From: Naegleria gruberi
Lineage: Eukaryota
Reading direction: 5' to 3' (one strand)
NCBI GenBank assembly: GCA_000004985.1
Contig: GG738954.1
DNA length: 21,721 nt
Under the pieces are notes generated by a model. That model was not told where the DNA came from, did not search any database, and saw only the letters and a list, made by a program, of their open reading frames with translations. Positions 4,401 to 21,721 of the stretch are shown here, piece after piece (position 1 is the first letter of the stretch; every line of letters begins with the position of its first letter). Position numbers and translations under genes: made by a program.

Positions 4401-5267
4401 NNNNNNNNNNNNNNNNNNNNNNNNNNNNNNNNNNNNNNNNNNNNNNNNNNNNNNNNNNNNNNNNNNNNNNNNNNNNNNNNNNNNNNNNNNNNNNNNNNNN
4501 NNNNNNNNNNNNNNNNNNNNNNNNNNNNNNNNNNNNNNNNNNNNNNNNNNNNNNNNNNNNNNNNNNNNNNNNNNNNNNNNNNNNNNNNNNNNNNNNNNNN
4601 NNNNNNNNNNNNNNNNNNNNNNNNNNNNNNNNNNNNNNNNNNNNNNNNNNNNNNNNNNNNNNNNNNNNNNNNNNNNNNNNNNNNNNNNNNNNNNNNNNNN
4701 NNNNNNNNNNNNNNNNNNNNNNNNNNNNNNNNNNNNNNNNNNNNNNNNNNNNNNNNNNNNNNNNNNNNNNNNNNNNNNNNNNNNNNNNNNNNNNNNNNNN
4801 NNNNNNNNNNNNNNNNNNNNNNNNNNNNNNNNNNNNNNNNNNNNNNNNNNNNNNNNNNNNNNNNNNNNNNNNNNNNNNNNNNNNNNNNNNNNNNNNNNNN
4901 NNNNNNNNNNNNNNNNNNNNNNNNNNNNNNNNNNNNNNNNNNNNNNNNNNNNNNNNNNNNNNNNNNNNNNNNNNNNNNNNNNNNNNNNNNNNNNNNNNNN
5001 NNNNNNNNNNNNNNNNNNNNNNNNNNNNNNNNNNNNNNNNNNNNNNNNNNNNNNNNNNNNNNNNNNNNNNNNNNNNNNNNNNNNNNNNNNNNNNNNNNNN
5101 NNNNNNNNNNNNNNNNNNNNNNNNNNNNNNNNNNNNNNNNNNNNNNNNNNNNNNNNNNNNNNNNNNNNNNNNNNNNNNNNNNNNNNNNNNNNNNNNNNNN
5201 NNNNNNNNNNNNNNNNNNNNNNNNNNNNNNNNNNNNNNNNNNNNNNNNNNNNNNNNNNNNNNNNNNN
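1457..5267. other. assembly gap (3811 N)
   Basis: Continuous run of n. All four ORFs in the track running through it (1378..5514 and 1382..5329 on the minus strand, 1391..5272 and 1407..6146 on the plus strand) are artefacts of translating N as X. Confidence 1.
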
Positions 5268-6146
5268 GTTGATTCACTCTCTGAGAATATTCCACAAATT
5301 GACTTGACCAACTTTTTAAATGAATACAAGAATGAGAAGGGAAGAGGTTTCGCCAGTAGAGGAAGAAGTTTAAAATCAATTTTGAGTGGAAATATTTCAG
5401 AAAAGGAATCTCAACGATTGGATAACTTGTTTGGTGTAGAGTATTTGGAGGATATTTATGATGAATTGAGAACTGGTGATGTCTTGTTGCATTCTGGAAA
5501 GGGAACTTTCTCAAAAGCTATTCAATTGGGATTTTCATCGACTTGGTCTCACTTGTCGATTATTATTAGAAATCCACCGAAAGAATTATTGGAATTGTAT
5601 AAGGTTCAAGTTGATGCTTCATCAAGATTTTCAACTGTTTTTGTTGCAGAATCTGAAACTGATACTGTGGACAATAAGGAAGGTGGTGGAATTCAATTAG
5701 TAGAATTGAGAAGGTGGTTTATGGATTATTTGGAAAGAGATCCAACTGATTTGTGTTGTTTGAGAAGATTGAACATTCCTTCAATGGATAATAGACCAAA
5801 GGATGAGAATATTGTGGATCAATTCCCAACACTTGTTGATTATTTGAAGATTTCCATTGATAAGAAATACGAAACTTCAAAATCTGAATTATTGAAATGT
5901 GTCATTAAGAGAAATACTCAATCCAATGATGCTAATGTATTCTGTTCTGAATTTGTGGCTGAATGCTATCTTAGAATGGGTTTATTGCCACAAAACACAA
6001 TTACCTGCAATTATGGACCTCGTGACTTTAGTCAGGAATCTAATTTGGTTAATACAGTTCTATTGAAAGGAGCCAACTTGACAAAAGAAAAGAGAATTCG
6101 AGTAAGAGAATGGGATGAAAAGAATGATTGGAATGTTCAACCATAA
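5268..6146 (+). CDS. 3' part of a gene (start codon is inside the gap) encoding a permuted papain-fold hydrolase domain of the YiiX/YaeF (C92) / NlpC-P60 superfamily type; putative cysteine amidase or peptidase.
   Basis: In-frame continuation of the real-sequence end of ORF 1407..6146, with no Met between the gap edge and the domain; stop TAA at 6144..6146. Motifs seen in the translation: GDVLLHSGKGTFSKAIQ...TWSHLSIIIRN (a His-containing strand) followed about 150 aa later by VFCSEFVAECYLRMGLLP (a nucleophile Cys in a C-S-E-[FL]-V context). The His-before-Cys order is characteristic of permuted NlpC/P60-like enzymes. Confidence 0.6.
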   Translation, partial: VDSLSENIPQIDLTNFLNEYKNEKGRGFASRGRSLKSILSGNISEKESQRLDNLFGVEYLEDIYDELRTGDVLLHSGKGTFSKAIQLGFSSTWSHLSIIIRNPPKELLELYKVQVDASSRFSTVFVAESETDTVDNKEGGGIQLVELRRWFMDYLERDPTDLCCLRRLNIPSMDNRPKDENIVDQFPTLVDYLKISIDKKYETSKSELLKCVIKRNTQSNDANVFCSEFVAECYLRMGLLPQNTITCNYGPRDFSQESNLVNTVLLKGANLTKEKRIRVREWDEKNDWNVQP

Positions 6147-6271: not shown

Positions 6272-7405
6272 CTAAAAATAATCATTTTGTTCTCTACTGT
6301 TTGAGTTAGAATCATCTTGTTCAAACAAAAAATCAAAGTCTGAATTAAGGGGAAAATTACCATTAGAACTTTCGTCTTGTTGATTGGGATCATATGCTAA
6401 TAGGTCAGTAATACATTCTTCGAACAATCTTTGAGGCGAAGAAATTAGATTTGGGAAGGAATTTGGACTTGGTGGTGCACTACTGGCAGCCATTTGAGAC
6501 ATGGCAGTTGGATACGTAGAATTCGGGATTCTTGGATCCATTAATGGGGTTGTTGGGATGAAATTTTGCATCACCGTATTGAAAGTTAGTGGTGTACTAG
6601 CAGATGGTGTCATTGGAACAAAGTTTTGCATTGGATTGACACTTGGTGGTGTAATAATATTAGGAACTAGTGGTGACAAAGAGTTTCCAGAAAGTGTTTG
6701 AGAATTATAAGATTGAATACTACCTGTATCATCACCAGAAGAGGAAGCTGCAACTACCTTCTTCTTTCTTGGTTTAGTCTTCTCACTGGTCTTTCTTTTA
6801 GTTCCAGATTTTGGCTCTTGATCTTCAATCATCGTTTCAGCAGAGGAACTAGAGGAAGCAGAAGCAGCAGCTCTCTTTCTAGGCTTTCTTTTCTTTCTGT
6901 TTGTTGTTACAGGTTCCAATCCACCATCAACATTAATTTCTTCTTCTTTTTCTTCTGACATTTCATCATCATCAGCAATCCATAGAGGTTCATCTTCACC
7001 ATTCAAATAGATGGCTTGAACCACTGATAAATTAGAATTATTCCTGACCACAGCCAGCCTTGTCTTCAACTTGATAACATGACCAAGGAGCACAATAATA
7101 ATATCACCCACTGCCTTTGTTGGGCACTTAACTTGACAAGCACCAAGTATCTTGGAAATTGTCATTTCAGCACGCATCTTGTTATCGCTAAAGTTGTTCT
7201 TCATCATGTACCAGCCTGATCTGTTTTGCAATGCATCAACCACAACCACTCTGATCTTGATGCCATCGAACAATTCCAATGAAACATGGGCCAATCCCTT
7301 CTTTCTAATAACAATTTTAAAAACAGGACGATGGGTAATTGGATCGTAAATAGTTTGTTCAAAGATTGGTTTATCAACGTTATTGACGTTATTGTTCTTG
7401 GTCAT
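6272..7405 (-). CDS. hypothetical nuclear protein, likely a transcription regulator: about 150-aa N-terminal globular domain of unrecognised family, an acidic stretch, two basic NLS-like clusters, an S/T/P-rich region with internal repeats, and an acidic/hydrophobic C-terminal tail.
   Basis: Intronless 377-aa ORF with ATG (complement of 7403..7405) and TAG stop (complement of 6272..6274). Features in the translation: basic clusters RKKRKPRKR and KRKTSEKTKPRKKK; a Ser run (AAASASSSSSA); a repeated motif MQNFVPMTPSASTP / MQNFIPTTPLMDP; and a C-terminal DFDFLFEQDD activation-domain-like tail. The plus-strand ORFs 6501..6701, 6698..6958 and 7152..7349 are antisense to this gene and are rejected. 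Confidence 0.7.
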   Translation of the reverse strand: MTKNNNVNNVDKPIFEQTIYDPITHRPVFKIVIRKKGLAHVSLELFDGIKIRVVVVDALQNRSGWYMMKNNFSDNKMRAEMTISKILGACQVKCPTKAVGDIIIVLLGHVIKLKTRLAVVRNNSNLSVVQAIYLNGEDEPLWIADDDEMSEEKEEEINVDGGLEPVTTNRKKRKPRKRAAASASSSSSAETMIEDQEPKSGTKRKTSEKTKPRKKKVVAASSSGDDTGSIQSYNSQTLSGNSLSPLVPNIITPPSVNPMQNFVPMTPSASTPLTFNTVMQNFIPTTPLMDPRIPNSTYPTAMSQMAASSAPPSPNSFPNLISSPQRLFEECITDLLAYDPNQQDESSNGNFPLNSDFDFLFEQDDSNSNSREQNDYF

Positions 7406-7676: not shown

Positions 7677-10405
7677 NNNNNNNNNNNNNNNNNNNNNNNN
7701 NNNNNNNNNNNNNNNNNNNNNNNNNNNNNNNNNNNNNNNNNNNNNNNNNNNNNNNNNNNNNNNNNNNNNNNNNNNNNNNNNNNNNNNNNNNNNNNNNNNN
7801 NNNNNNNNNNNNNNNNNNNNNNNNNNNNNNNNNNNNNNNNNNNNNNNNNNNNNNNNNNNNNNNNNNNNNNNNNNNNNNNNNNNNNNNNNNNNNNNNNNNN
7901 NNNNNNNNNNNNNNNNNNNNNNNNNNNNNNNNNNNNNNNNNNNNNNNNNNNNNNNNNNNNNNNNNNNNNNNNNNNNNNNNNNNNNNNNNNNNNNNNNNNN
8001 NNNNNNNNNNNNNNNNNNNNNNNNNNNNNNNNNNNNNNNNNNNNNNNNNNNNNNNNNNNNNNNNNNNNNNNNNNNNNNNNNNNNNNNNNNNNNNNNNNNN
8101 NNNNNNNNNNNNNNNNNNNNNNNNNNNNNNNNNNNNNNNNNNNNNNNNNNNNNNNNNNNNNNNNNNNNNNNNNNNNNNNNNNNNNNNNNNNNNNNNNNNN
8201 NNNNNNNNNNNNNNNNNNNNNNNNNNNNNNNNNNNNNNNNNNNNNNNNNNNNNNNNNNNNNNNNNNNNNNNNNNNNNNNNNNNNNNNNNNNNNNNNNNNN
8301 NNNNNNNNNNNNNNNNNNNNNNNNNNNNNNNNNNNNNNNNNNNNNNNNNNNNNNNNNNNNNNNNNNNNNNNNNNNNNNNNNNNNNNNNNNNNNNNNNNNN
8401 NNNNNNNNNNNNNNNNNNNNNNNNNNNNNNNNNNNNNNNNNNNNNNNNNNNNNNNNNNNNNNNNNNNNNNNNNNNNNNNNNNNNNNNNNNNNNNNNNNNN
8501 NNNNNNNNNNNNNNNNNNNNNNNNNNNNNNNNNNNNNNNNNNNNNNNNNNNNNNNNNNNNNNNNNNNNNNNNNNNNNNNNNNNNNNNNNNNNNNNNNNNN
8601 NNNNNNNNNNNNNNNNNNNNNNNNNNNNNNNNNNNNNNNNNNNNNNNNNNNNNNNNNNNNNNNNNNNNNNNNNNNNNNNNNNNNNNNNNNNNNNNNNNNN
8701 NNNNNNNNNNNNNNNNNNNNNNNNNNNNNNNNNNNNNNNNNNNNNNNNNNNNNNNNNNNNNNNNNNNNNNNNNNNNNNNNNNNNNNNNNNNNNNNNNNNN
8801 NNNNNNNNNNNNNNNNNNNNNNNNNNNNNNNNNNNNNNNNNNNNNNNNNNNNNNNNNNNNNNNNNNNNNNNNNNNNNNNNNNNNNNNNNNNNNNNNNNNN
8901 NNNNNNNNNNNNNNNNNNNNNNNNNNNNNNNNNNNNNNNNNNNNNNNNNNNNNNNNNNNNNNNNNNNNNNNNNNNNNNNNNNNNNNNNNNNNNNNNNNNN
9001 NNNNNNNNNNNNNNNNNNNNNNNNNNNNNNNNNNNNNNNNNNNNNNNNNNNNNNNNNNNNNNNNNNNNNNNNNNNNNNNNNNNNNNNNNNNNNNNNNNNN
9101 NNNNNNNNNNNNNNNNNNNNNNNNNNNNNNNNNNNNNNNNNNNNNNNNNNNNNNNNNNNNNNNNNNNNNNNNNNNNNNNNNNNNNNNNNNNNNNNNNNNN
9201 NNNNNNNNNNNNNNNNNNNNNNNNNNNNNNNNNNNNNNNNNNNNNNNNNNNNNNNNNNNNNNNNNNNNNNNNNNNNNNNNNNNNNNNNNNNNNNNNNNNN
9301 NNNNNNNNNNNNNNNNNNNNNNNNNNNNNNNNNNNNNNNNNNNNNNNNNNNNNNNNNNNNNNNNNNNNNNNNNNNNNNNNNNNNNNNNNNNNNNNNNNNN
9401 NNNNNNNNNNNNNNNNNNNNNNNNNNNNNNNNNNNNNNNNNNNNNNNNNNNNNNNNNNNNNNNNNNNNNNNNNNNNNNNNNNNNNNNNNNNNNNNNNNNN
9501 NNNNNNNNNNNNNNNNNNNNNNNNNNNNNNNNNNNNNNNNNNNNNNNNNNNNNNNNNNNNNNNNNNNNNNNNNNNNNNNNNNNNNNNNNNNNNNNNNNNN
9601 NNNNNNNNNNNNNNNNNNNNNNNNNNNNNNNNNNNNNNNNNNNNNNNNNNNNNNNNNNNNNNNNNNNNNNNNNNNNNNNNNNNNNNNNNNNNNNNNNNNN
9701 NNNNNNNNNNNNNNNNNNNNNNNNNNNNNNNNNNNNNNNNNNNNNNNNNNNNNNNNNNNNNNNNNNNNNNNNNNNNNNNNNNNNNNNNNNNNNNNNNNNN
9801 NNNNNNNNNNNNNNNNNNNNNNNNNNNNNNNNNNNNNNNNNNNNNNNNNNNNNNNNNNNNNNNNNNNNNNNNNNNNNNNNNNNNNNNNNNNNNNNNNNNN
9901 NNNNNNNNNNNNNNNNNNNNNNNNNNNNNNNNNNNNNNNNNNNNNNNNNNNNNNNNNNNNNNNNNNNNNNNNNNNNNNNNNNNNNNNNNNNNNNNNNNNN
10001 NNNNNNNNNNNNNNNNNNNNNNNNNNNNNNNNNNNNNNNNNNNNNNNNNNNNNNNNNNNNNNNNNNNNNNNNNNNNNNNNNNNNNNNNNNNNNNNNNNNN
10101 NNNNNNNNNNNNNNNNNNNNNNNNNNNNNNNNNNNNNNNNNNNNNNNNNNNNNNNNNNNNNNNNNNNNNNNNNNNNNNNNNNNNNNNNNNNNNNNNNNNN
10201 NNNNNNNNNNNNNNNNNNNNNNNNNNNNNNNNNNNNNNNNNNNNNNNNNNNNNNNNNNNNNNNNNNNNNNNNNNNNNNNNNNNNNNNNNNNNNNNNNNNN
10301 NNNNNNNNNNNNNNNNNNNNNNNNNNNNNNNNNNNNNNNNNNNNNNNNNNNNNNNNNNNNNNNNNNNNNNNNNNNNNNNNNNNNNNNNNNNNNNNNNNNN
10401 NNNNN
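7677..10405. other. assembly gap (2729 N)
   Basis: Continuous run of n. All three minus-strand gap ORFs are artefacts. Of the two plus-strand gap ORFs, only the real-sequence tail of 7644..10478 (10406 onward) is retained; 7618..10413 is an artefact. Confidence 1.
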
Positions 10406-10627: not shown

Positions 10628-11331
10628 ATTTTTTAAAAATCTTTTATTTTGGCGCTCTTGAAATTTACTGTTCTTTCAATATTGTGTGATGATTTGTTCT
10701 TTTGCTTCGGAATTACAAGACAGCAACAAATTTGTTGGGATTGATCAAAATCGTTACTTTCCACAATTTATCTTTTGAAAAAAATTTAAAGTTTTCAATA
10801 TTTATTTAAATATTAAAAAAATATAACAATGAAGGAGGCAAGTGAAGAAGAGACTGTTCTTTGTGAACATGATCTCGATTATAATTGATTAGCAGTATTA
10901 GTATTATTCATGATCAAATGTAACAAAAATAGTTCATATGAACGACGGAAGGCTCTAATTTCTGCATGATTTGTTTTAAAAGCAATCAAACTATGATGAT
11001 GTTTATCAAAGTAGACATTTTGATAAATATTAGGCGTGCCAAGAACATTTGGATAGATTCGATCAACAATCTTCATCGTGATTCGAATTACTTTTGTAGT
11101 TATTACATTAAGGAATCATCGCTTTAGTATTTCAATCTCACTGAATGTCTTTAAAGTACTAAAACCAAAAACATCATCACTTCTCATATCTACTTGGATT
11201 GGCCGAAGTTTGGAAATATTACATGTTTCATACAACACATGTGGTTCACATCTTCTCCTGGCAAAACCTATCAAAAACTACAATGCCAATGCTGTTGGCA
11301 TGAATATAATTTATTCAACAACAAGAAAAGA

Positions 11332-14300
11332 ATGGAATCAACATTAGGCAGAAGATCATCTATTTCCACCTCTTCATCAGATGGTGGTTCTTCAATAACT
11401 TCTGCCTCTTTTGCCAGCTCCTTATTCAAAACCTTTAATGAATATCTATCAATGATGTATTTATGTAGCAAGATGAGGATGAACACCCTCACAAGGTTTA
11501 GCAACAGTAAAGGCAGCTATGTAGAAGGTTTGCCTGTAACAGTCCCTTGGAAGATACGACTGGCTAGATTGGCTATATCGTTATGGTTTTTATACATGTT
11601 GTGGATTGGAATTTGGTTACCTGCATTGACTTCTCATCAGGAGTATTCTAGTATACTTTCATCTAATAGTACCATAAATAATGAATATAATACTTCACCG
11701 TTTGGATTTGAAGGAGGATGGGTATTTAGAGTATTGAACTATCCACTCACTTTATCAACAGATGCCATTCCTTATGAGGGAATAATTGCACTTTCTGTCA
11801 TATTTACATTGATTTCATTGGTGAATATTATCTTGATGATTATTGGAATGAAGAAGAGATGTGAAGGAATTTACAAAATATTTGACAAGGTTGGGATGTA
11901 TTGTTCATTAGTAGTATCGTTTATTGGACCAGTTGCCTTATTTATTATGAGCAGTTTTGTTGATTGTAATCCAAATATTCAAATCAATGTCGAAGATCAG
12001 ACAGCAAGTGTTTCTGGATTGTCAAGATTTCCATCAGTTCAATGTTATTCTAAAACAAATACTATTTTAATTGTCATGAGTTTGATTGGAATGATGATTA
12101 CATTTGTGAGTTGGAGTTTCTCTGTGTTTTTATTGCCAATCAATACACCCAATGTTGGAATTCCTTTTGTGACGAAGGATAACTTTATATTGGCACCAAC
12201 TATTTGCACGATAGGATTCGAATTGTTAATCATATTCTTGATTCCACCGAATTACATGATGGGGAGAGCGATAGTTCATCTCATTTTGAGCATTTATCAA
12301 CATTCCACTCATCATTTACAGTTTACCATTTTATCATCGAATGATGAATTCACTCTATTTTGGAGTTGTTTGTGCAAGATTTGGAGTTAGTATTGGATTT
12401 TTGATTAGTTCATTGGTCAATTTAAATCTTTTGAGTGATTTGGGACTTGGAATGATGGGATTGAGTATTGGATTGGGAATTCTATTTTTCATTCTTGCTT
12501 TTACTGCTTTGGAAATTTACACAAGGTTGTGCTGCAGGCGAATTAGAAACATCTTTTCAAGAAAGATATCAGAATCCACAATCACTAACAGCAAGCAAGA
12601 CATCAACCTTTACTCAATAGTAGAAAAGGAAGCTCTTTCAATCTTTACTCTTTGTGAGCATGTTTCATCCAGAAGTTTGACTCTATTCTTGCAATCTACT
12701 GTTTGCCTAAAAGAACAAAACGGGTATAAGGAGGATGATGAATATATAGCACTGGACGATAAGTTGTTGGCAATATCCTTTGTCAAGTCTATTTCGCAAC
12801 AAAAATCTTTCGTCAATGCAGACATGTTGATAATTTCCGGAATGCTTATTAACTTTAATAGCAAAGAGGACAACAAGTATCAATTCGCCAGTTATCTTCT
12901 AGCAAAAGCATACAAACGAACCTCCAACACTATCAAGAAGTTAATCGTTTTAGAAAAACAAAAAGAAATTGAGATTGATTTGAATGAAGTGACCAAAACA
13001 AATATTGAAGTCAGAAATGCAATCACAGAGGTGGCTAAAAAGTTGGAAGAATTACGTATTGTTCATAGATCATTCTGGAAGGAAATGCTTAATGAAATGC
13101 CAAACGAAACCAAACTTTTACAAATTAATAGTAAGGCAACCGTATTATCCAAATTTTGTGAAAAATCCTTTTCCAACTTGATGAAGTCTCATAATCATGA
13201 CAAGACAGTAATCAGATTCTATGCAAAATATGTGGAGGAATTCAAGTTTGATAAGGAATTGTCGAATTCATTGTTTGAAGAAGCTAACCAGTTGGAAGAC
13301 GAAGAATCCAGATCAAGAAAGTATTCAATAATGAAATTACAACCAAATGAAACAAAGAAATTCAAAAATAAGGTAGCTCCATCATCTCCAAATTTAATGG
13401 ATGATATGAGTGTTACTGGAAGAGAAACCATGTTCGATTCTATGGGATCGCTCAGCATGAAAAAATTCTCTAATCAGCCAACTAACAATCCATTAAATGA
13501 GACAGATTTTGAAGGAGTAGAAAATGAAGGTATTGACAAGAAGGAATCATTTTTCAGAGCTGCCATCAATACTCCATTTCAATCAAAGTTGAAAATATCC
13601 ATCTTCCTTGGCCTTTCAGTGCTATTACATATTTGTATGATTGCAATATTTGTGCTAAGTATGGTATTTAGTGAAAAAGTTGTTTCTACTCCTCTTGTAT
13701 TGCAGAGTTGCATTACAGGCTCAACACCTGGCGCCTTGTTGAGATTTACGAGAATGAATCAAATTTTGACTGAGGTTTACGCAAATGAAGGACAACCTTG
13801 GTTACAGAACTCTACCAGGTATTACGAAATTAATAACTTTTTGAAAAATTACAAGAATAGATATTTGGAGCATAAGGGGTATTTGGAAACATTAATTTCC
13901 AATTCACAATCAGGAAAGTTTACAAGTAACATGTATACTGACTTTACAGAGAGAGCAAGTCCAATTTTAATTCCAATTTCAACAACAGACCCTAAATCTA
14001 TTGAATTTGTAAATACCTTCTCAAAGAATGTTTCAATGAGTGAAGTTTCTCAAGAATTCTTGCATCATGTTGAACAATTTTTGAACTTTGGAGAAAAGCA
14101 ATACAATGAAACAACAAAAAGTTACAGTTTCATGTATGTCTACTTGAATAGAAGATATTTAGCCGATAATTATCTCCAATTCTGTAGATCATTCCAGGAG
14201 AGCGAAAGAGCTAGTACTTTTGAACTGAATATCATACTCTCGAGCTATATTTTTGCTTCTTCTTCCGTAATGACGATGATTTACGTTATTTTCATTTTGA

Positions 14301-14887
14301 TTTCAAGGAGTGAGATGACTTGGTTCAGTAAGATCACATCTCTTTACAAGAAAATTCCAAAAGATTTTGTTGGAATAATTTATCACAAATTGGAAGAAAA
14401 GACAAAAGATGATGCCAAACATTTGAAGAAAAATCCTCTCTTGCAACCAAAAAATTTTACTTTAATACTGGCTATTTTGATAGTTGTAATATTCATGTTG
14501 TCTTCTGGTTTGATTTATTATGAAATTTCAATGAATATTTCAACTGCATCATCTGCCATTTACAATGTTGATTTGATGAGCGTCTTTTTGAGAACAGTTC
14601 ATAGAGTTACTATTAGATTAAATGAATTCTTCATTTATCTTACCCTGCCTTCTGGAAAATTCATTAACAGTCCATATTTAGTTTCGAATAATTCACAATT
14701 GCAAACAATGAAAACAGAAATCAGACAATTCATTGATTTGACTGCAACCATTTATGATCAGGTTATTTATGGCCAAGATGGAGTTACTTCTTCTCTTGTT
14801 GGGCAATATTCTGAAATTGACAAGATGATAACAGGTCAGTCCACATGCAGCAATTCCACAATTGATTACGAAATTAGCAATAATGGA
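11332..14887 (+). pseudogene. copy 1 of the giant membrane-sensor adenylyl-cyclase paralog family (8-TM N-terminal block, coiled coil, TM-bracketed loops). A +1 frameshift (extra g at about 12294) splits the reading frame: 11332..12390 in frame 1, then 12341..14887 in frame 2. The 3' end (PAS and cyclase) is missing at the 14888..15050 gap. Either a pseudogene or a sequencing error.
   Basis: The ATG at 11332 sits in an aaaag-aATGGA context like the copy-3 start. The N-terminal TM block from 11693 onward is about 93-95% identical at nucleotide level to copy 3 (20137 onward). At 12281..12300, copy 1 reads catctcattttgaGcatttatc where copy 3 reads catctcattttgacatttatc; one extra base shifts the frame and gives a stop at 12388..12390. 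The downstream frame (12341..14887) is collinear with copy 2 (15058..17589). The frame-1 ORF extension back to 11194 is not conserved in copy 3 and is taken to be 5' UTR. Confidence 0.6.
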
Positions 14888-15050
14888 NNNNNNNNNNNNN
14901 NNNNNNNNNNNNNNNNNNNNNNNNNNNNNNNNNNNNNNNNNNNNNNNNNNNNNNNNNNNNNNNNNNNNNNNNNNNNNNNNNNNNNNNNNNNNNNNNNNNN
15001 NNNNNNNNNNNNNNNNNNNNNNNNNNNNNNNNNNNNNNNNNNNNNNNNNN
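14888..15050. other. assembly gap (163 N) joining non-collinear parts of two paralogs
   Basis: Upstream of the gap, copy 1 ends at the position equivalent to copy 2 nt 17589 (the ...IDYEISNNG loop). Downstream, sequence resumes at the position equivalent to copy 1 nt 12338 / copy 3 nt 20778 (the ...YHRMMNSLYF junction). About 1.6 kb of copy 1 (its 3' part) plus an intergenic region plus about 1.1 kb of copy 2 (its 5' part) are unaccounted for. Confidence 1.
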
Positions 15051-18000
15051 TCATCGAATGATGAATTCACTCTATTTTGGAATTGTTTGTGCAAGATTTG
15101 GAGTGAGTATTGGATTTTTGATTAGCTCATTAGTCAATTTAAATCTTTTGAGTGATTTGGGTCTTGGAATGATGGGATTGAGTATTGGATTGGGAATTCT
15201 ATTTTTCATTCTTGCTTTTACTGCTTTGGAAATTTACACACTCGTAGTTTGCAGACAAATAAGAAATATTTTCAAAACCAAGATTAGTGCCTGTGAAATA
15301 AATGAGAGCAGAGCAGATTTATCACTTTACAACATTATTGAAAGAGAGGCAGTTTCCATTTTCATTGTTTGTGAACAATTATCTCTAAGACACTTGATGT
15401 TGTTTTTACAATTTTCAATTGGGCAAAATGTGAAACATCACTCCCCCGATCATTACGGTGTGACTATTGTCAGTGATCCATTAATGGCTATTGCTTTTGT
15501 GAAATCCATTTCTCAGCAGAAATCCTTCCTTAATACTGAAATGTTGCTCATTTCAAGTGTTTTGGTCAATTACATTTGGCAAGATGATCACAGATCTCAA
15601 TTTGCAAATTATCTACTGGCAAAGGCTCTTAAACATTGTCATCAAACGTTAAAGAGAGTTCTTATCACTGAAAAACAAAAAGAAATTGAAATTACACTTA
15701 ACGAGCTAACCAAGACAAATATGGAAGTAAGAAACACAATTACAGAATTAGAAATTACCCTTGCTGAGCTTCGAATTGTTCATAAATCATTCTGGAAGGA
15801 AATGTTGAACGATATTCCAAACGAAACCAAACTTTCACAAATTAATAGCAGAGCTTCTGTCCTAACACTATTCTGTGACCAGAATTTCCTCAATCTTACC
15901 AAAGCTCACAGTCATGATAAGACAGTGATTCGTTTTTATGCATCCTACCTTGAGGAATTCAAATTCGATAAGGAACTATCTACTTCATTGTTTGAAGAAG
16001 CTGCTGCAATGGAAGAAGAAGAATCGAGATCAAAGAATGTCAATCATCACAATCCACAATCATATTACGAAGCAAAGAAATTCAAGAATAAGATTGTGCC
16101 CTCATCCAATGTGGAAATGTCCACCAATAATGAAGATATTAGTACTGAAAGAGATGAAAGTGGTTCAGCCCTAAATGGAAAAAGTCAATTCAATGGGAAT
16201 GAGATGGATTTCGAAGGTGTCGAAAATCAAGGAATTGACAAGAAGGAAACCTTCTTCAGAACTGCCATCAATGCTCCATTCCAATCCAAACTGAGAATCT
16301 CGATCTTTCTATTCTTGTCAGTTTTGATGCATGTCTTGTTAATTGTCATTTTCATTCTGAGTATTGTTTATAATGAGAGAGTTGTTTCTACTCCTCTTGT
16401 ATTGCAGAGTTGCATTCCTGGTTCAACACCTGGTGCATTACTAAGAGTTGCAAGAATGAATCAAATTTTGACTGAGGTTTACGCAAATGAAGGACAATCA
16501 TGGTTAAAGAACTCGAGTAGAATGTATGAATTGAATTATTTCACATCAACCTTCAGAAATCGATATTTGGAGCATAAGGGGTATTTGGAAACATTAATTT
16601 CCAATTCACAATCAGGTAAATTTACAAGTAACATGTATAATGACTTTACAGAGAGAGCAAGTCCAATTTTAATTCCAATTTCAACAACAGATCCTAAATC
16701 GATTGAATTTGTAAACACCTTCTCAAAGAATGTTTCAATGAGTGAAGTTTCTCAAGAATTCTTGCATCATGTTGAGCAATTTTTGAACTTTGGAGAAAAG
16801 CAATACAATGAAACAACAAAGAGTTACAGTTTCATGTACATTTATTTAAATAGAAGATATTTAGCCGATAATTATCTCCAATTCTGCAAGTCATTCCAGG
16901 AAAGCGAAAGAGCCAACACTCACCAGTTGAATATTATTTTACTGGCCTATATTTTCACATCCTCCTCAGTAATGACGATGATTTACGTTATTTTCATTTT
17001 GATTTCAAGGAGTGAGATGACATGGTTCAGTAAGATCACATCTCTTTACAAGAAAATTCCAAAAGATTTTGTTGGAATAATTTATCACAAATTAGAAGAA
17101 AAGACAAAAGATGATGCCAAGCACTTGAAGAAAAATCCTCTCTTGCAACCAAAGGCCTTTTCTCTGATATTGGCACTTCTAATTGTGACAGTTTTCATGT
17201 TGTCTTCTGGTTTGATTTATTATGAAATTTCAATGAATATTTCAACTGCTTCATCTGCCATTTACAATGTTGATTTGCTGAGTGTATTTTTGAGAACAGT
17301 TCATAGAGTTACCATTAGACTGAATGAATTGTTTATTTACTTGTCATTGCCATCTGGAAAATTCATTAACAGTCCATATTTAGTTTCGAATAATTCACAA
17401 TTGCAAACAATGAAAACAGAAATCAGACAATTCATTGATTTGACAGCAACCATTTATGATCAGGTTATTTATGGACAAGATGGAATAACAACACCACTCG
17501 TTGGAAAATACTCCAAATTAGATAAGATTATTACTGGTCTATCGACTTGCACCAATTCCTCAATTGACTATAATTGGAAATCTAATGGAAACAAAATTAT
17601 TGGACAAAGTAATGAATTGTTAAAAGATTGTTATGGTCTTCAAAAGTACATGTCTACATTCACAATTCTTGCAGGACAAGTGAGTGAAAAGTTCTTCAAT
17701 CCTTCCTATGCTTCGACACAATCTGAAGAAGCATTCGCAGAATTGTTAACATTATTTAATATGTGTGATATGGTTTATGACAAGTTTAGAGATTTTCTCA
17801 CAACATTGGTCAGTTTGACATCTGTTCCTTCCATTACAATTTCAATTGTCTTGATTTTCGGTATAACTTCAATGCTCATATTACAATATATGATTTTCAT
17901 CAGTTTCCAAACCTATGATCACGAAATAACCAATATGAAAGCATTCTTGAATTATCTGTCCACAGAATTCATAGAATCAAATGATGGACTCAAGAGTTTT

Positions 18001-19206
18001 GCCTTGTACAACTCTATTGGAACGAACTATTTGACTGGACGAAAGCTAAAACAATCCTCAGCTACAGATCAAGATTCTTTGAAGAAATTAATGAGTTCAA
18101 TGGTAGATGGTGCACTATTAGCAAACGAAAGTGGAGATATCATTCTTTTCAACGGACCAGCTCAGAACATGTTCGGAAAGTCAATTTCTGATGTTCTGGG
18201 AACAAACTTTATGCATTTATTTGATGAGCACTCTGGTGAAAAGTTGTCCAACATTTTGAAAACAATCAAGAGTGAAATTGATGAAAATGTCAAACATGGA
18301 GATGTTATTGAATTGGAATGTGTTAGAAAGAATTCCACAAAGTTTCCAGCCATGGTTACTATCTTTGTTTCGAGAATTTCTGGCAGCTCTTACAAGGGAA
18401 AGAGTAACTCAATGGTTGTTTCATGCTTTATGAGAGATATCACTCCAGAGAAGAAGCAAAATTCACTTCTAGCAGAGGAGAAGAAAAATTCAGAAAATTT
18501 ATTGAGAAACATCTTGCCAGATGCTGTTGCAAGCAAGTTGAAATCAGGTGAGACATTTATTGCTGAGAGATTTAGTGATATTACTTGTTTCTTTAGTGAT
18601 ATGGTTGGTTTTACGAAAATGTCAAGTGGAATGAATCCAAGTGAATTGGTTTTGATGTTGTCATCAATTGTGAATGGATTTGATGATTTGACAGATGTTT
18701 ATTCATTGGAAAAGATCAAGACAATTGGTGATGCTTATTTTTGTGTTGGAGGTTTACATAATAATCCACAATCTGATCATCCTGAAAGAACATTGAGATT
18801 TGCAATTGATACATTTCAAGTGATTAGAAATTATAATATTGAACATCCTCAAAATCAATTGAATATTCGAGTTGGAATCAATACAGGATCAGTTGTTGCT
18901 GGTGTAATTGGAAAGAAGAAGTTTGCCTATGATTTATGGGGTGATACCATCAATACTGCTTCTCGAATGGAATCAACTTCAATGGCAGGAAGAATTCAAA
19001 TTTCCAGATCAACCTATCAGAGAGTCTATGATATTGGATTTGAATTTGAACAGAGAAGTGTTGAAGTGAAAGGAAAAGGTGTTTGTGAAACCTATTTATT
19101 GAAGGATAAACATCATGCAACGTCAATAATTCCAGTAACAGAATCACAAATTCTCAAGAAGGAACAAAGCAACGAAGAAAAATTAAGCGAACAATTAGAT
19201 CAATAA
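15051..19206 (+). CDS. copy 2: membrane-sensor adenylyl cyclase, 5'-truncated by the gap (open frame from 15052; first in-frame ATG at 15058; 1382 codons to TAA at 19204..19206). Order of parts: TM pair, coiled coil, TM, about 180-aa loop, TM, TM, about 190-aa loop, TM, PAS, class III cyclase domain.
   Basis: A single uninterrupted 4.1-kb ORF. Hydrophobic helices at about 15058..15250, 16290..16380, 16925..17010, 17160..17230 and 17800..17900. Heptad-rich segment EKQKEIEITLNELTKTNMEVRNTITELEITLAELRIVHKSF at about 15660..15790. C-terminal cyclase motifs: FFSDMVGFT (metal-binding Asp), KIKTIGDAYFCVGGL (second metal Asp plus specificity Lys), YDLWGDTINTASRMEST (specificity Asp, and the Asn/Arg transition-state pair). 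Confidence 0.85.
18080..18440 (+). other. PAS sensor domain within copy 2
   Basis: LKKLMSSMVDGALLANESGDIILFNGPAQNMFGKSISDVLGTNFMHLFDE...GDVIELECVRKNSTKFPAMVTIFVSR. The PAS-like core pattern is hydrophobic - N - x - A - x - x - hydrophobic - hydrophobic - G, followed by a beta-rich segment, placed between the last TM helix and the cyclase domain. Confidence 0.55.
18550..19100 (+). other. class III nucleotidyl cyclase catalytic domain (CYC/CHD), with residues predicting adenylyl cyclase specificity and homodimeric function
   Basis: Both metal-binding Asp residues are present (FSDMVGF and IGDAY). The base-specifying pair is Lys (KIKTIGD) and Asp (YDLWG), not the Glu/Cys pair of guanylyl cyclases. 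The Asn (TINTA) and Arg (SRME) transition-state residues are also present. Having every catalytic residue in one domain is typical of cyclases that act as homodimers. Confidence 0.9.
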
Positions 19207-19703
19207 AATGCCAGGTTTTGAGATAATGGTGGGCTTAGAATTTAACGAAAATGGTTTGCCTTCTTGATGTGTTTTGAAGCTGAATTAGGTTAAATGTTAT
19301 TACCGAGAGTCGTTTTACTTAGTTACACATGCAGCTGAGATTCATCGGTGGTGCTGGCATCGGTAGAGTCTTTCATTAAATTTGAAGTGGTTGACTTTTC
19401 ATTAGAAATATTTGCGATGAGATGGAAAAATGATTGATGTTGAGGTGAAAATTTATGTCATGGCTTCTCGAAATCTACAACCACATAGCTTGGATCCTCA
19501 TCCTAAAACAAATCTTGACCCAAATAAGTAACAATCTCTACAGCTCTTGCACATCCCAAAAACAGACCTGCGCCACAAAATTTTCTTTTTTTTACCCAAA
19601 TTTCCTTAATAATGCCTCAACAACCTCCACAAATTACAGTTGCAAAAATGGCGCTCTTTTTCGCTAAGGCAATTAGTCATTTAAAACCAACCTTAGAAAA
19701 AAA

Positions 19704-21721
19704 ATGGAGCCATCATCGATAGGGGGAGGATCATCAGTTTCAGGCTCCACACAAACATCCAATGCCTCTTCAAGTTCCTTGTCTGGAAACATCTTTAGAA
19801 CAGTTAATGAATTTCTCACAAATTTGTACATGTCGGGAAAGTTGAGAATGAATGGTTTAACGAGACAATATACATCAATGAATAGCAGTTTGTTAGGTGC
19901 TGGTGTTTCTAGTGCTGGATTTTATGAGAGCTTTAATAGGAAACCTTCGTGGAATGTAAGGTTGTGCAGAGGTTTACTGTTTGTCTGGTTTTTGTATATC
20001 ATGTGGATTGGAGTGTGGTTACCTGGATTAACTTCTCATCAGGATTATTCACAAATATATTCTTCATCATCTTCTGTTTCATCATCAAGCAATTCAGGAA
20101 ATCAAACGAGTAGTATAGTAAATAATGAATTTAACACTTCACCGTTTGGATTTGAAGGAGGATGGGTATTTAGAGTATTGAATTATCCACTCACTTTATC
20201 AACAGATGCCATTCCTTATGAGGGAATAATTGCCTTGTCTGTCCTATTTACATTGATTTCATTGGTGAATATTATCTTGATGATTATTGGAATGAAGAAG
20301 AGATATGGAAATGTTTACAAATTCTTGGATAAAGTGGCGATGTGTTGGGGAATGATTGTATTATTCAGTGGACCAGTTGCCTTGTTTATTATGAGCAGTT
20401 TTATTGATTGTAATCCAAATATTAGGATTGAAATTGAGAATCAGACAGCAAGTGTTTCTGGATTGTCAAGATTTCCAACAGTTCAGTGCTATTCAGCTGA
20501 TAATATAGTATTACTAGTTCTGAGTTTGATTGGAATGATGATTACATTTGTGAGTTGGGGTTTCTCTGTGTTTTTATTGCCAATCAATACACCCAATGTT
20601 GGAATTCCTTTTGTGACGAAGGATAACTTTATATTGGCACCAACCATTTGCACGATAGGATTGGAATTGTTAATCATGTTCTTGATTCCACCGAATTTCA
20701 TGATGGGGAGAGCGATTGTTCATCTCATTTTGACATTTATCAACATTCCACTCATCATTTACAGTTTACCATTTTATCATCGAATGATGAATTCACTCTA
20801 TTTTGGAATTGTTTGTGCAAGATTTGGAGTGAGTATTGGAGTATTGATTAGCTCATTGGTCAATTTAAATCTGTTGAGTGATTTGGGACTTGGAATGATG
20901 GGATTGAGTATTGGATTGGGAATTCTATTTTTCATTCTTGCTTTTACTGCTTTGGAGATTTACACGCTCGTTGTTTGCAGACAAATAAGAAATATTTTCA
21001 AAACCAAGATTAGTGCCTGTGAAATAACTGAGAGCAGAGCAGATTTATCCCTGTACAACATTATTGAAAGAGAGGCAGTTTCCATTTTCATTGTTTGTGA
21101 ACAATTATCTCTGAGACACTTGATGTTGTTTTTACAATTTTCAATTGGGAAAAATGTGAAACATCACTCCCCCGATCATTACGGTGTGACTATTGTCAGT
21201 GATCCATTGATGGCTATTGCTTTTGTGAAATCCATTTCTCAGCAGAAATCCTTCCTTAATACTGAAATGTTGCTCATTTCAAGTGTTTTGGTCAACTACA
21301 TTTGGCAAGATGATCACAGATCTCAATTTGCAAATTATCTACTAGCAAAGGCTCTTAAACATTGTCATCAAACTTTAAAGAGAGTTCTTATCACTGAAAA
21401 ACAAAAAGAAATTGAAATTACACTCAACGAGCTAACCAAGACAAATATGGAAGTAAGAAACACAATTACAGAATTAGAAATAACCCTTGCTGAGCTTCGA
21501 ATTGTTCATAAATCATTCTGGAAGGAAATGTTGAACGATATTCCAAACGAAACCAAACTTTCACAAATTAATAGCAGAGCTTCTGTCCTAACACTATTCT
21601 GTGACCAGAATTTCCTCAATCTTACCAAAGCTCACAGTCACGATAAGACAGTGATACGTTTTTATGCGTCCTACCTTGAGGAATTCAAATTCGATAAGGA
21701 ACTATCTACTTCATTGTTTGA
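19704..21721 (+). CDS. copy 3: membrane-sensor adenylyl cyclase paralog, 5' complete (ATG 19704..19706), open to the window end (3' partial). N-terminal Ser-rich segment, then the 8-TM block, then the start of the coiled-coil region.
   Basis: Translated codon by codon from 19704 to 21721 in frame (positions divisible by 3) with no stop. It is missing from the supplied ORF track, apparently because that track requires a terminal stop. About 97-98% nucleotide identity to copy 2 over 20785..21721 versus 15058..15994 (about 22 mismatches in about 940 nt). N-terminal TM block 93-95% identical to copy 1. ORF 20648..20851 (+) and ORF 20489..20701 (-) are off-frame or antisense and are rejected. Confidence 0.8.
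   Translation, partial: MEPSSIGGGSSVSGSTQTSNASSSSLSGNIFRTVNEFLTNLYMSGKLRMNGLTRQYTSMNSSLLGAGVSSAGFYESFNRKPSWNVRLCRGLLFVWFLYIMWIGVWLPGLTSHQDYSQIYSSSSSVSSSSNSGNQTSSIVNNEFNTSPFGFEGGWVFRVLNYPLTLSTDAIPYEGIIALSVLFTLISLVNIILMIIGMKKRYGNVYKFLDKVAMCWGMIVLFSGPVALFIMSSFIDCNPNIRIEIENQTASVSGLSRFPTVQCYSADNIVLLVLSLIGMMITFVSWGFSVFLLPINTPNVGIPFVTKDNFILAPTICTIGLELLIMFLIPPNFMMGRAIVHLILTFINIPLIIYSLPFYHRMMNSLYFGIVCARFGVSIGVLISSLVNLNLLSDLGLGMMGLSIGLGILFFILAFTALEIYTLVVCRQIRNIFKTKISACEITESRADLSLYNIIEREAVSIFIVCEQLSLRHLMLFLQFSIGKNVKHHSPDHYGVTIVSDPLMAIAFVKSISQQKSFLNTEMLLISSVLVNYIWQDDHRSQFANYLLAKALKHCHQTLKRVLITEKQKEIEITLNELTKTNMEVRNTITELEITLAELRIVHKSFWKEMLNDIPNETKLSQINSRASVLTLFCDQNFLNLTKAHSHDKTVIRFYASYLEEFKFDKELSTSLF

What the first reader, a model, noticed from the sequence alone, without database searches (positions are those of the whole stretch)
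16380..17800. Two large TM-bracketed loops carry the most strongly conserved sequence in the family: candidate novel ligand-binding module
Loop 1 (NERVVSTPLVLQSCIPGSTPGALLR ... YLADNYLQFCKSFQESERA) and loop 2 (YEISMNISTASSAIYNVD ... LSTCTNSSIDYNWKSNG ... LLKDCYGLQKY ... FNMCDMVYDKF) each span about 180-190 aa between hydrophobic helices. They contain paired Cys residues and several N-x-[ST] sequons. They are the region homogenised between copies 1 and 2 (see the gene-conversion finding). They resemble no sensor domain I can recognise; I see no CHASE, Cache/dCache, periplasmic-binding-protein or ANF-receptor motif. Their position relative to the TM helices suggests a double-loop extracytoplasmic sensor that signals through the intracellular PAS and cyclase.
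Basis: inference. Interest (0 to 1): 0.5.

Follow-up and report, generated by a model that had tools for sequence, protein, structure and literature searches.

The report
Twin four-helix ectodomains in amoebal cyclase
The two big loops are real, outward-facing parts of a membrane adenylate cyclase from a Naegleria-like amoeba. They are predicted to fold as disulfide-stapled four-helix bundles resembling bacterial chemoreceptor sensor domains, so they are plausible but unproven signal sensors, and they are not the most conserved part of the family.

Summary
The loops exist as described. In ORF 15058-19206 (1382 aa), loop 1 (aa 441-623) and loop 2 (aa 723-918) are each bracketed by single hydrophobic helices. 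A PAS domain and a class III cyclase domain follow.

Homologues are heterolobosean cyclases (Naegleria, Willaertia, Acrasis). My first guess of Trichomonas was wrong.

Across 28 family sequences, two Cys pairs (C452/C610, C831/C858) and several N-x-S/T sites are conserved. Charge distribution fits loops-out, cyclase-in. An extracytoplasmic location is therefore well supported.

"Most conserved in the family" is not supported. The loops show 20-23% identity, against 65-75% for the cyclase and its linker. The high similarity of copies 1 and 2 extends to synonymous sites, so it reflects gene conversion rather than constraint.

Best reading: a tandem four-helix-bundle ectodomain that controls the cyclase through TM6 and the PAS domain. 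Ligand binding is untested.

A third tandem gene copy and a frameshift in copy 1 were also found.

The parts
15058..19206 (+). Copy 2 of the cyclase gene as visible in the window (1382 codons). Its true 5' part, the N-terminal 6-TMH block, is hidden by the N-run 14888-15050.
   Evidence: ORF list and translation. Pfam: TPR_TmcB aa 223-324, PAS_9 aa 1017-1129, Guanylate_cyc aa 1169-1349. 'MMNSLYFG' is shown to be internal by copy 3.
15724..16029 (+). Cytosolic TPR_TmcB domain (aa 223-324), upstream of the finding.
   Evidence: Pfam PF25474, E 2.9e-13, 50.3 bits against a cut-off of 27.
16291..16377 (+). TM3 (aa 412-440), running in to out.
   Evidence: Hydropathy peak 3.14. Continuous helix in the AF2 model (model residues 10-41). 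K+R 2.4 before and 1.2 after.
16378..16926 (+). Loop 1 / ectodomain 1 (aa 441-623). Predicted four-helix bundle with a beta-hairpin and short helices inserted between helices 2 and 3. Nearly invariant residues: C452, R466, Q469, P540, N558, N598, F609, C610.
16411..16413 (+). Cys452 codon on the first ecto-helix, 12 residues after TM3. Putative disulfide partner of Cys610.
   Evidence: 27/28 family sequences. Pairing is inferred from equal height on neighbouring helices 1 and 4; no distance was measured.
16885..16887 (+). Cys610 codon on the last ecto-helix of loop 1, 14 residues before TM4.
   Evidence: 27/28 family sequences, within the conserved F-C motif.
16927..17010 (+). TM4 (aa 624-651), running out to in.
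   Evidence: Hydropathy. Part of the continuous helix at model residues 200-264. K+R 1.2 before and 2.9 after.
17011..17148 (+). Short cytosolic TM4-TM5 linker (aa 652-697) with the conserved motif I-P-K-D-x-x-G-x-I-Y-H-x-L (K669, G673, H677).
   Evidence: K669 25/28, G673 27/28, H677 23/28. K+R 17.4 per 100 aa. Predicted helix at model residues 268-286.
17149..17223 (+). TM5 (aa 698-722), running in to out.
   Evidence: Hydropathy 2.51. Part of the helix at model residues 297-362. K+R 2.3 before and 0.6 after.
17224..17811 (+). Loop 2 / ectodomain 2 (aa 723-918). Four long predicted helices, with a variable insert bounded by Cys831 and Cys858 between helices 2 and 3. Nearly invariant residues: E757, G806, D822, C831, C858.
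   Evidence: DSSP of the whole-module AF2 model: helices at model residues 297-362, 378-404, 449-478 and 481-520; low pLDDT only at 433-453. Conservation. Loop 2 was not modelled or fold-searched on its own.
17548..17550 (+). Cys831 codon, within the family-wide N-C-T motif.
   Evidence: 28/28 sequences. A sequon at this position occurs in 15/21.
17629..17631 (+). Cys858 codon. Putative partner of Cys831, closing a loop of variable length.
   Evidence: 25/28 sequences. The segment between the two Cys is the low-confidence, length-variable part of the model.
17812..17901 (+). TM6 (aa 919-948), running out to in and leading to the PAS domain.
   Evidence: Hydropathy 2.38. Helix at model residues 526-553. 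K+R 1.3 before and 2.1 after.
18106..18444 (+). Cytosolic PAS domain (aa 1017-1129).
   Evidence: Pfam PAS_9, E 9e-15.
18562..19104 (+). Class III cyclase catalytic domain (aa 1169-1349). All six canonical residues are present in one chain: D1181, D1225, K1221, D1292, N1299, R1303. This predicts a homodimeric adenylate cyclase.
   Evidence: Pfam Guanylate_cyc, E 6.9e-57. Motif positions. Residue roles are assigned from established knowledge of class III cyclases.
13676..14887 (+). The same loop 1 - TM4 - linker - TM5 - loop 2 module in copy 1, cut inside loop 2 by the N-run. Equivalent Cys codons lie at 13709-13711, 14183-14185 and 14846-14848.
   Evidence: Translation. Coordinates. Identity profile.

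Best explanation
The region encodes the membrane-embedded input module of a receptor-type adenylate cyclase from a heterolobosean (Naegleria-like) amoeba.

Architecture. The full protein has eight N-terminal TM helices, a cytosolic TPR_TmcB domain and then four more TM helices. These last four display two ectodomains on the outer (or lumenal) face: TM3-EC1-TM4 and TM5-EC2-TM6. Each ectodomain is predicted to be an up-down four-helix bundle whose first and last helices continue directly into the flanking TM helices. Each carries a conserved Cys pair (probably a disulfide) and conserved N-glycosylation sites.

Inferred mechanism. A stimulus acting on the ectodomains shifts the TM helices. The stimulus could be a small ligand bound in or between the bundles, or a physical cue. 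TM6 passes the change to the cytosolic PAS domain. The PAS domain passes it through the highly conserved helical linker to the cyclase domain, which must pair as a homodimer to make cAMP. The strong divergence of the loops against a conserved catalytic end suggests that paralogues differ in what they sense.

Shown here: the architecture, topology indicators, conservation pattern, predicted fold and family membership. Inferred: disulfide formation, glycosylation, ligand binding and the signalling route.
For: Architecture and topology:
- Domains and hydropathy.
- Positive-inside pattern at TM3 to TM6. K+R before/after each helix: 2.4/1.2, 1.2/2.9, 2.3/0.6, 1.3/2.1.
- Conserved Cys pairs, 25-28 of 28 sequences.
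- Conserved sequons: N558 in 19/21, the N-C-T at C831 in 15/21, N584 in 13/21.
- Sequon density in the loops is 1.3-1.4x that expected from composition, against 0.5x in the cyclase.

Predicted fold:
- AF2 of aa 402-955: pLDDT 83.9, pTM 0.77, nearly all helical, with TM helices extending into the ecto-helices.
- AF2 of loop 1 alone: pLDDT 88.1, pTM 0.82.

Family and catalytic end:
- 58 representative clusters match. All 23 with a source name are Naegleria, Willaertia or Acrasis. They share the same Pfam order.
- All six catalytic residues are present.
- The loops are the variable part and the catalytic end is conserved.
Against: - No ligand, pocket or binding residue was identified.
- I could not read model coordinates, so Cys-Cys distances and the packing of the two bundles are unverified.
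- Sequon enrichment is weak. The PAS region also reaches 1.25x.
- The PAS domain or the 8-TMH block could be the real sensor.
- The models rest on only 20 aligned sequences.
Confidence: 0.6

Rival explanations
1. The ectodomains are structural rather than sensory. They would be glycosylated, disulfide-stapled spacers that help folding, dimerisation, trafficking or protection of the 12-TM anchor. The cytosolic PAS domain, the TPR_TmcB domain or cytosolic partners would then control the cyclase.
For: - A PAS domain, a classic intracellular sensor, sits directly before the cyclase.
- The loops have few invariant polar residues. About 12-13 of roughly 190 columns reach 70% conservation, and several of those are Cys, Gly, Pro or glycosylation Asn.
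- Four-helix bundles are also generic scaffolds. Designed bundles and talin score like the sensor domains.
Against: - Purely structural spacers seldom keep nearly invariant charged or polar helix residues such as R466, Q469, E757 and D822 across 20-25% identical paralogues.
- Variable ectodomains combined with a conserved output is the usual pattern of receptor families.
- pN/pS of about 0.09-0.21 in the loops shows purifying selection.
Confidence: 0.22
2. The module senses a physical or membrane cue rather than a soluble ligand. Candidates are osmolarity, ionic strength, membrane tension or lipids. Alternatively the 12-TM anchor has a transport or channel-like activity coupled to the cyclase. 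The helical ectodomains would then act as levers.
For: - There are twelve predicted TM helices in all.
- TM helices continue rigidly into long ecto-helices.
- Established knowledge, not tested here: Dictyostelium ACG is an osmosensing cyclase, some ciliate and apicomplexan cyclases are fused to channel-like or ATPase-like modules, and Naegleria differentiation responds to ionic conditions.
Against: - No transporter or channel family hit was found in Pfam. Foldseek matches to transporters were all non-significant (E>0.1, TM-score <=0.2).
- The diversity of the ectodomains among dozens of paralogues fits many chemical inputs better than one physical cue.
Confidence: 0.13
3. The loops are cytosolic, or the ORF is a pseudogene relic with no function.
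For: - Copy 1 carries a frameshift, and tandem copies recombine.
- The published Trichomonas TMAC family, which has the same architecture on paper, is 46% pseudogenes.
Against: - Copy 2 is open for 1382 codons with all catalytic residues intact.
- pN is much lower than pS in the loops.
- An even number of TM helices on each side, charge bias, conserved Cys pairs and conserved sequons all place the loops outside.
Confidence: 0.05

Closest known systems
Heterolobosean membrane-bound PAS adenylate/guanylate cyclases (e.g. Naegleria gruberi XP_002674931.1 and XP_002672713.1; N. fowleri, N. lovaniensis, Willaertia magna and Acrasis kona paralogues)
   Same: - Homologous over the whole TM3-to-TM6 module: E 6e-96 to 1e-4, 22-39% identity.
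- Same Pfam order, TPR_TmcB - PAS - Guanylate_cyc.
- Same N-terminal TMH block.
- Same four conserved Cys.
   Different: - The closest named relative is only about 39% identical in this region. The best hit overall is an unnamed metagenome protein at 42-44%. The window therefore comes from an organism or paralogue not in the collections searched.
- No source annotates or describes the ectodomains.
Bacterial four-helix-bundle sensor domains flanked by two TM helices (4HB_MCP/TarH type: Tar, Tsr, PcaY_PP; NarX/NarQ; PilJ-type McpN; HK9; QseE)
   Same: - Predicted up-down four-helix bundle whose first and last helices continue into TM helices.
- The output is a dimeric signalling enzyme reached through a helical linker.
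   Different: - No sequence or profile similarity. Identity in the structural alignments is 4-15%.
- Two bundles per chain rather than one.
- Eukaryotic, with conserved Cys pairs and N-glycosylation sites.
- Large inserts between helices 2 and 3: a beta-hairpin in loop 1 and a Cys-bounded variable loop in loop 2.
- PAS rather than HAMP follows the membrane.
- Designed bundles score equally well, so homology is not shown.
NIT domain of NasR (PDB 4akk), two tandem four-helix bundles in one chain
   Different: - No Pfam NIT hit.
- NIT is a soluble cytoplasmic domain.
- The alignment may include TM helices.
Trichomonas vaginalis transmembrane adenylyl cyclases (TMACs; Cui et al. 2010, PMC2914791)
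   Same: - The published topology is the same on paper: 6-8 N-terminal TMHs, a ~300-aa conserved cytosolic domain, 4-6 TMHs separating two extracellular domains, and a C-terminal type III cyclase.
- Both are large, recombining, pseudogene-rich tandem families.
   Different: - Homology was not shown here. None of the 23 hits with a source name is from Trichomonas, and no TMAC sequence could be retrieved for comparison.
- The paper does not mention a PAS domain (0 occurrences).
Dictyostelium TmcB family (Pfam PF25474, TPR_TmcB)
   Same: - The cytosolic domain just upstream of TM3 matches PF25474 above its cut-off.
- One paper describes the tmcB family as acting in cAMP signalling during Dictyostelium sexual development (PMC8516963).
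   Different: - The match lies outside the loops.
- Whether TmcB proteins have equivalent ectodomains was not tested.
Other eukaryotic receptor-type cyclases (trypanosome receptor adenylate cyclases, Dictyostelium ACG)
   Same: An extracellular domain is coupled through the membrane to a class III cyclase that works as a dimer (established knowledge).
   Different: - From established knowledge, those proteins have one TM helix and a periplasmic-binding-protein-like or CHASE-type alpha/beta ectodomain.
- Here there are 12 TM helices and two all-helical ectodomains. No PBP, ANF or CHASE hit was found.

Membership tests
Heterolobosean membrane-bound PAS adenylate cyclase family | Significant sequence similarity across the TM3-loop1-TM4-TM5-loop2-TM6 module | tested here: met
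   phmmer against 1.84 billion representatives gave 58 hits at E<=1e-3 and 13 at E<=1e-30, most spanning query residues ~2-553. Named members are Naegleria, Willaertia and Acrasis.
Heterolobosean membrane-bound PAS adenylate cyclase family | Domain order: N-terminal TMH block - TPR_TmcB - 4 TM helices with two loops - PAS - class III cyclase | tested here: met
   Pfam on the window protein and on N. gruberi P0002 gives the same order. The N-terminal block is present in copies 1 and 3. It is hidden by an N-run in copy 2.
Heterolobosean membrane-bound PAS adenylate cyclase family | Conserved ectodomain Cys pairs | tested here: met
   C452 27/28, C610 27/28, C831 28/28, C858 25/28.
Class III adenylate cyclase | Catalytic-domain profile match above the curated cut-off | tested here: met
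   PF00211, 192.4 bits against a cut-off of 21.9.
Class III adenylate cyclase | Two metal-binding Asp, Lys/Asp substrate-specifying pair, Asn/Arg transition-state pair | tested here: met
   D1181, D1225, K1221, D1292, N1299 and R1303 were located by motif. Role assignment rests on established knowledge of the motifs, not on a structural alignment.
Class III adenylate cyclase | cAMP synthesis by a dimer | not testable with these tools
   Needs an enzyme assay.
Bacterial 4HB sensor domains (4HB_MCP / TarH / NarX-type) | Up-down four-helix bundle between two TM helices on the extracytoplasmic side | tested here: met
   [not shown]
Bacterial 4HB sensor domains (4HB_MCP / TarH / NarX-type) | Sequence-profile membership (Pfam 4HB_MCP, TarH, PilJ, NIT, CHASE3 or similar) | tested here: not met
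   No such hit at E<=1 in the query or in 19 relatives. A family-profile search of PDB sequences found nothing relevant.
Bacterial 4HB sensor domains (4HB_MCP / TarH / NarX-type) | Binds a signal molecule, typically at or near a dimer interface | not testable with these tools
   Coordinates could not be read and there are no binding data.
NIT domain | Profile match and a two-bundle soluble domain | tested here: not met
   [not shown]
Trichomonas TMAC family (Cui et al. 2010) | Topology: N-terminal TMHs, conserved cytosolic domain, further TMHs separating two extracellular domains, C-terminal cyclase | tested here: met
   The paper's description was compared.
Trichomonas TMAC family (Cui et al. 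2010) | Sequence homology to a TMAC such as TVAG_350120 | tested here: inconclusive
   No Trichomonas protein appears among the 23 hits with a source name. The supplements hold no sequences. Profile searches of the word-indexed collection returned nothing useful.
TmcB family (PF25474) | TPR_TmcB profile match | tested here: met
   50.3 bits against a cut-off of 27 at aa 223-324. The match lies outside the loops.
CHASE / Cache / periplasmic-binding-protein / ANF-receptor sensors | Profile match and an alpha/beta fold | tested here: not met
   No Pfam hits. The predicted fold is almost entirely helical.

The most novel reading that the evidence does not exclude
The two ectodomains pack side by side as a covalently linked pseudo-dimer. 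This would be a single-chain eukaryotic counterpart of the dimeric Tar/NarX-type four-helix-bundle sensor, with a binding site between the bundles lined by the nearly invariant R466/Q469 (bundle 1) and E757/D822 (bundle 2). The module would define an undescribed eukaryotic receptor superfamily shared by heterolobosean cyclases, Trichomonas TMACs and perhaps Dictyostelium TmcB. Dozens of paralogues per genome would then be tuned to different external chemicals.
Probability: 0.2. Interest if true: 0.6.

Novelty: new variant of a known kind. Interest (0 to 1): 0.35.

Why it matters
Naegleria and its relatives carry 80 or more membrane cyclases (PMC9928731), and their inputs are unknown. These ectodomains are the variable part of a conserved cAMP-producing scaffold. 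If they are tandem four-helix-bundle sensors, they are the likely place where these amoebae read their chemical surroundings. One relative is the pathogen N. fowleri.

The prediction yields concrete, testable residues and domain boundaries for ligand screens and chimeras. It would also be a case of eukaryotes using a sensor architecture known mostly from bacterial chemoreceptors and histidine kinases.

As it stands, the result is a structural prediction for a family already present but poorly annotated in databases. It is useful but not surprising.

Tried and rejected
1. I first assumed the gene was a Trichomonas vaginalis TMAC, from memory. Source names then showed that the hits are Heterolobosea. 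The Trichomonas link is kept only as an untested resemblance.
2. All three homologous-protein searches were unproductive. They used the loop region, loop profile A1 and N-domain profile A4. The results were only P0001, or nothing.
3. The exact-sequence look-up of the window protein found no record, so the organism stays unidentified.
4. The afdb50 fold library was unavailable. I could not see whether TmcB or Trichomonas models share the module.
5. Foldseek against PDB gave no match at E<0.1.
Only loop 1 was modelled alone.
7. Internal duplication of the two halves is inconclusive. hhalign gave probability 68% with the TM helices included but 2.8% for the loops alone.
8. I looked for a Tar-like stripe of conserved arginines on helix 1 of loop 2. 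R746, R750 and R754 are only 13-16/28 conserved, so I do not lean on it.
9. Sequon density as a topology marker is weak. The PAS region and the small linker are also above expectation. Only the positionally conserved sequons are informative.
Full report
**What is at the coordinates**

The window is low-GC (about 33%) and interrupted by three N-runs: 1457-5267, 7677-10405 and 14888-15050. The finding lies inside ORF 15058..19206 (+), which is open for 1382 codons. Pfam places a TPR_TmcB domain at aa 223-324, a PAS domain at aa 1017-1129 and a class III cyclase domain at aa 1169-1349.

Hydropathy gives single TM-length peaks at aa ~412-440, 624-651, 698-722 and 919-948. These bracket loop 1 (aa 441-623, nt 16378-16926) and loop 2 (aa 723-918, nt 17224-17811).

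Loop 1 has exactly two Cys and loop 2 has three. Each loop has three N-x-[ST] sequons.

**Which family**

I first took this for a Trichomonas transmembrane cyclase. Cui et al. 2010 describe the same layout, including "two extracellular domains". That was a recalled resemblance, and the data corrected it.

An exhaustive phmmer search with aa 402-955 found 58 representative clusters at E<=1e-3. I looked up source names for 30 of them. Every one of the 23 that carried a name is heterolobosean: Naegleria gruberi, N. fowleri, N. lovaniensis, Willaertia magna or Acrasis kona. One N. gruberi member is annotated "membrane bound adenylate/guanylate cyclase with PAS domain". Unnamed hits sit on eukaryotic metagenome contigs.

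The best hits are only 39-44% identical, and the exact protein is not on record. The source is therefore a heterolobosean, or a paralogue, absent from the collections. Naegleria genomes are reported to hold at least 81 cyclases (PMC9928731). I found no paper describing the ectodomains.

**Full gene structure**

The ORF upstream of copy 1 (11194..12390) is the N-terminal multi-TM block of the same family (E 1e-37 to N. gruberi P0002). It is joined to copy 1 only through a 1-nt frameshift near nt 12290.

A third tandem copy opens at nt 19677 (first ATG at 19704) and runs off the window end. It has that block in frame with "...LPFYHRMMNSLYFG...". "MMNSLYFG" is therefore internal, not a true start.

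Full-length proteins have 6+2 N-terminal TM helices, the cytosolic TPR domain and then TM3 to TM6. That makes 12 TM helices in all. Copy 2's N-terminal block is hidden by the N-run.

**Topology**

- The cyclase and PAS domains must be cytosolic, and one TM helix separates them from loop 2.
- Family-wide K+R counts in the 15 residues before/after TM3, TM4, TM5 and TM6 are 2.4/1.2, 1.2/2.9, 2.3/0.6 and 1.3/2.1. This fits the positive-inside rule for loops-out.
- C452 and C610 are each kept in 27/28 sequences, C831 in 28/28 and C858 in 25/28. C903 is not conserved.
- C452 lies 12 residues after TM3 and C610 lies 14 residues before TM4, on the first and last ecto-helices. A stalk-stapling disulfide is plausible (inference; no distances were available).
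- C831 and C858 bound the length-variable, low-confidence insert of loop 2.
- Sequons at N558 (19/21), at the N-C-T of C831 (15/21) and at N584 (13/21) are positionally conserved. Overall sequon enrichment is only 1.3-1.4x and is weak evidence.

**Conservation**

The title claim fails family-wide. Identity of 20 representatives to the query is 0.23 for loop 1 and 0.20 for loop 2. It is 0.65 for the cyclase, 0.75 for the PAS-cyclase linker, 0.38 for TPR_TmcB and 0.32 for PAS.

The homogenisation claim is correct. Copy 1 versus copy 2 shows 88-97% nt identity over most of 16408-17487, against 53-69% in 15238-15777. Synonymous divergence drops in parallel: pS is 0.28-0.42 in the loops against 0.77-0.81 in the N-domain. 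The similarity therefore reflects a younger shared history through gene conversion or recombination. It does not reflect extra constraint. pN/pS of about 0.09-0.21 does show purifying selection.

Copy 3 is 97.7% identical to copy 2 over 938 nt, in a stretch where copy 1 is only 53-69% identical. The array is a recombining mosaic.

**Fold**

By sequence the loops match nothing. There was no Pfam hit at E<=1 in the query or in 19 relatives. A profile search of PDB sequences gave nothing relevant.

AlphaFold2 with a 20-sequence family alignment gave a confident model of aa 402-955 (pLDDT 83.9, pTM 0.77). It is nearly all helical, and the TM helices continue into long ecto-helices. Loop 1 has a small beta-hairpin. 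Loop 2 has a disordered Cys-bounded insert.

Conclusions on fold:
- Each loop is best described as an up-down four-helix bundle with an insert between helices 2 and 3.
- The architecture (TM - bundle - TM) is that of bacterial 4HB sensors.
- The fold is too simple, and sequence identity too low (4-15%), to claim homology.
- Loop 2's fold rests on the secondary-structure pattern and on the higher whole-model scores. It was not tested separately.
- Whether the two halves arose by internal duplication is unresolved.

**Mechanism**

The cyclase domain has both metal Asp residues, the Lys/Asp pair that specifies ATP, and the Asn/Arg pair, all in one chain. It should therefore act as a homodimeric adenylate cyclase (established knowledge of class III enzymes).

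The most conserved segment of the whole protein is the helical linker between PAS and cyclase. This fits a rigid signalling path.

I infer the following route. A stimulus acting on one or both bundles displaces TM helices. TM6 relays this to the PAS domain, the linker and the catalytic dimer. The nearly invariant R466 and Q469 (helix 1 of bundle 1), E757 (helix 1 of bundle 2) and D822 are the best candidates for a functional site or an inter-bundle contact.

Divergent ectodomains on a conserved output suggest many input specificities. None of this is tested here. The main rival is that the loops are structural and the PAS domain senses.

**Verdict**

- "Novel" holds only at the sequence-family level, not for the fold or the protein family.
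- This is a new variant of a known kind of sensor architecture, found in a new member of a catalogued but uncharacterised cyclase family.
- Interest is moderate to low (0.35).

Noticed in passing
window 19677-21721 (+): There is a third tandem copy of the cyclase gene. The frame is open from 19677 (first ATG at 19704) to the window end, 681 codons with no stop. It carries the intact 360-aa N-terminal block with six TM-like segments, in frame with MMNSLYFG at nt 20784. It is 97.7% identical to copy 2 over 938 nt. The ORF listing does not show it because it runs off the window end.
   Followed up: yes
window ~12288-12295 (copy 1): A one-nucleotide frameshift separates copy 1's N-terminal TMH block (ORF 11194..12390) from the rest (ATG 12341). 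Copy 3 reads straight through the equivalent site. Copy 1 is either a pseudogene or carries an assembly error.
   Followed up: partly
window 14888-15050: The 163-base N-run cuts copy 1 inside loop 2 and ends 7 nt before copy 2's MMNSLYFG. Those 7 nt (TCATCGA) match copy 1's upstream sequence. The run therefore hides the rest of copy 1, the spacer and copy 2's N-terminal block, and its true size is probably several kb.
   Followed up: partly
It is predicted helical. It may be a juxtamembrane signalling element.
   Followed up: partly
window 18448-18561 (aa 1131-1168): The PAS-to-cyclase linker is the most conserved stretch of the whole protein, with 75% mean identity across 20 family representatives. 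This exceeds the catalytic domain itself (65%).
   Followed up: no
window 5268-6146 (+): This is the C-terminal part of an ORF emerging from the first N-run. It gives a borderline match to Peptidase_C92, the permuted papain-like YiiX/YaeF amidases (26.9 bits against a cut-off of 27).
   Followed up: no
window 6272-7405 (-): This 377-aa ORF has a long Ser/Pro/Lys-rich low-complexity tail. It has only weak, sub-threshold Pfam hits (TFIIF_alpha, CDC45).
   Followed up: no
window 1-537 (+): This multi-TM ORF fragment at the window start has no Pfam hit and no similarity to the cyclase family.
   Followed up: partly
P0027 and P0049 (the latter N. gruberi XP_002683621.1): Two family members carry long, mutually similar C-terminal extensions (roughly 400-500 aa) after the cyclase domain. 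A Pfam scan of P0049 found no hit there at E<=0.01; P0027 was not scanned.
   Followed up: no
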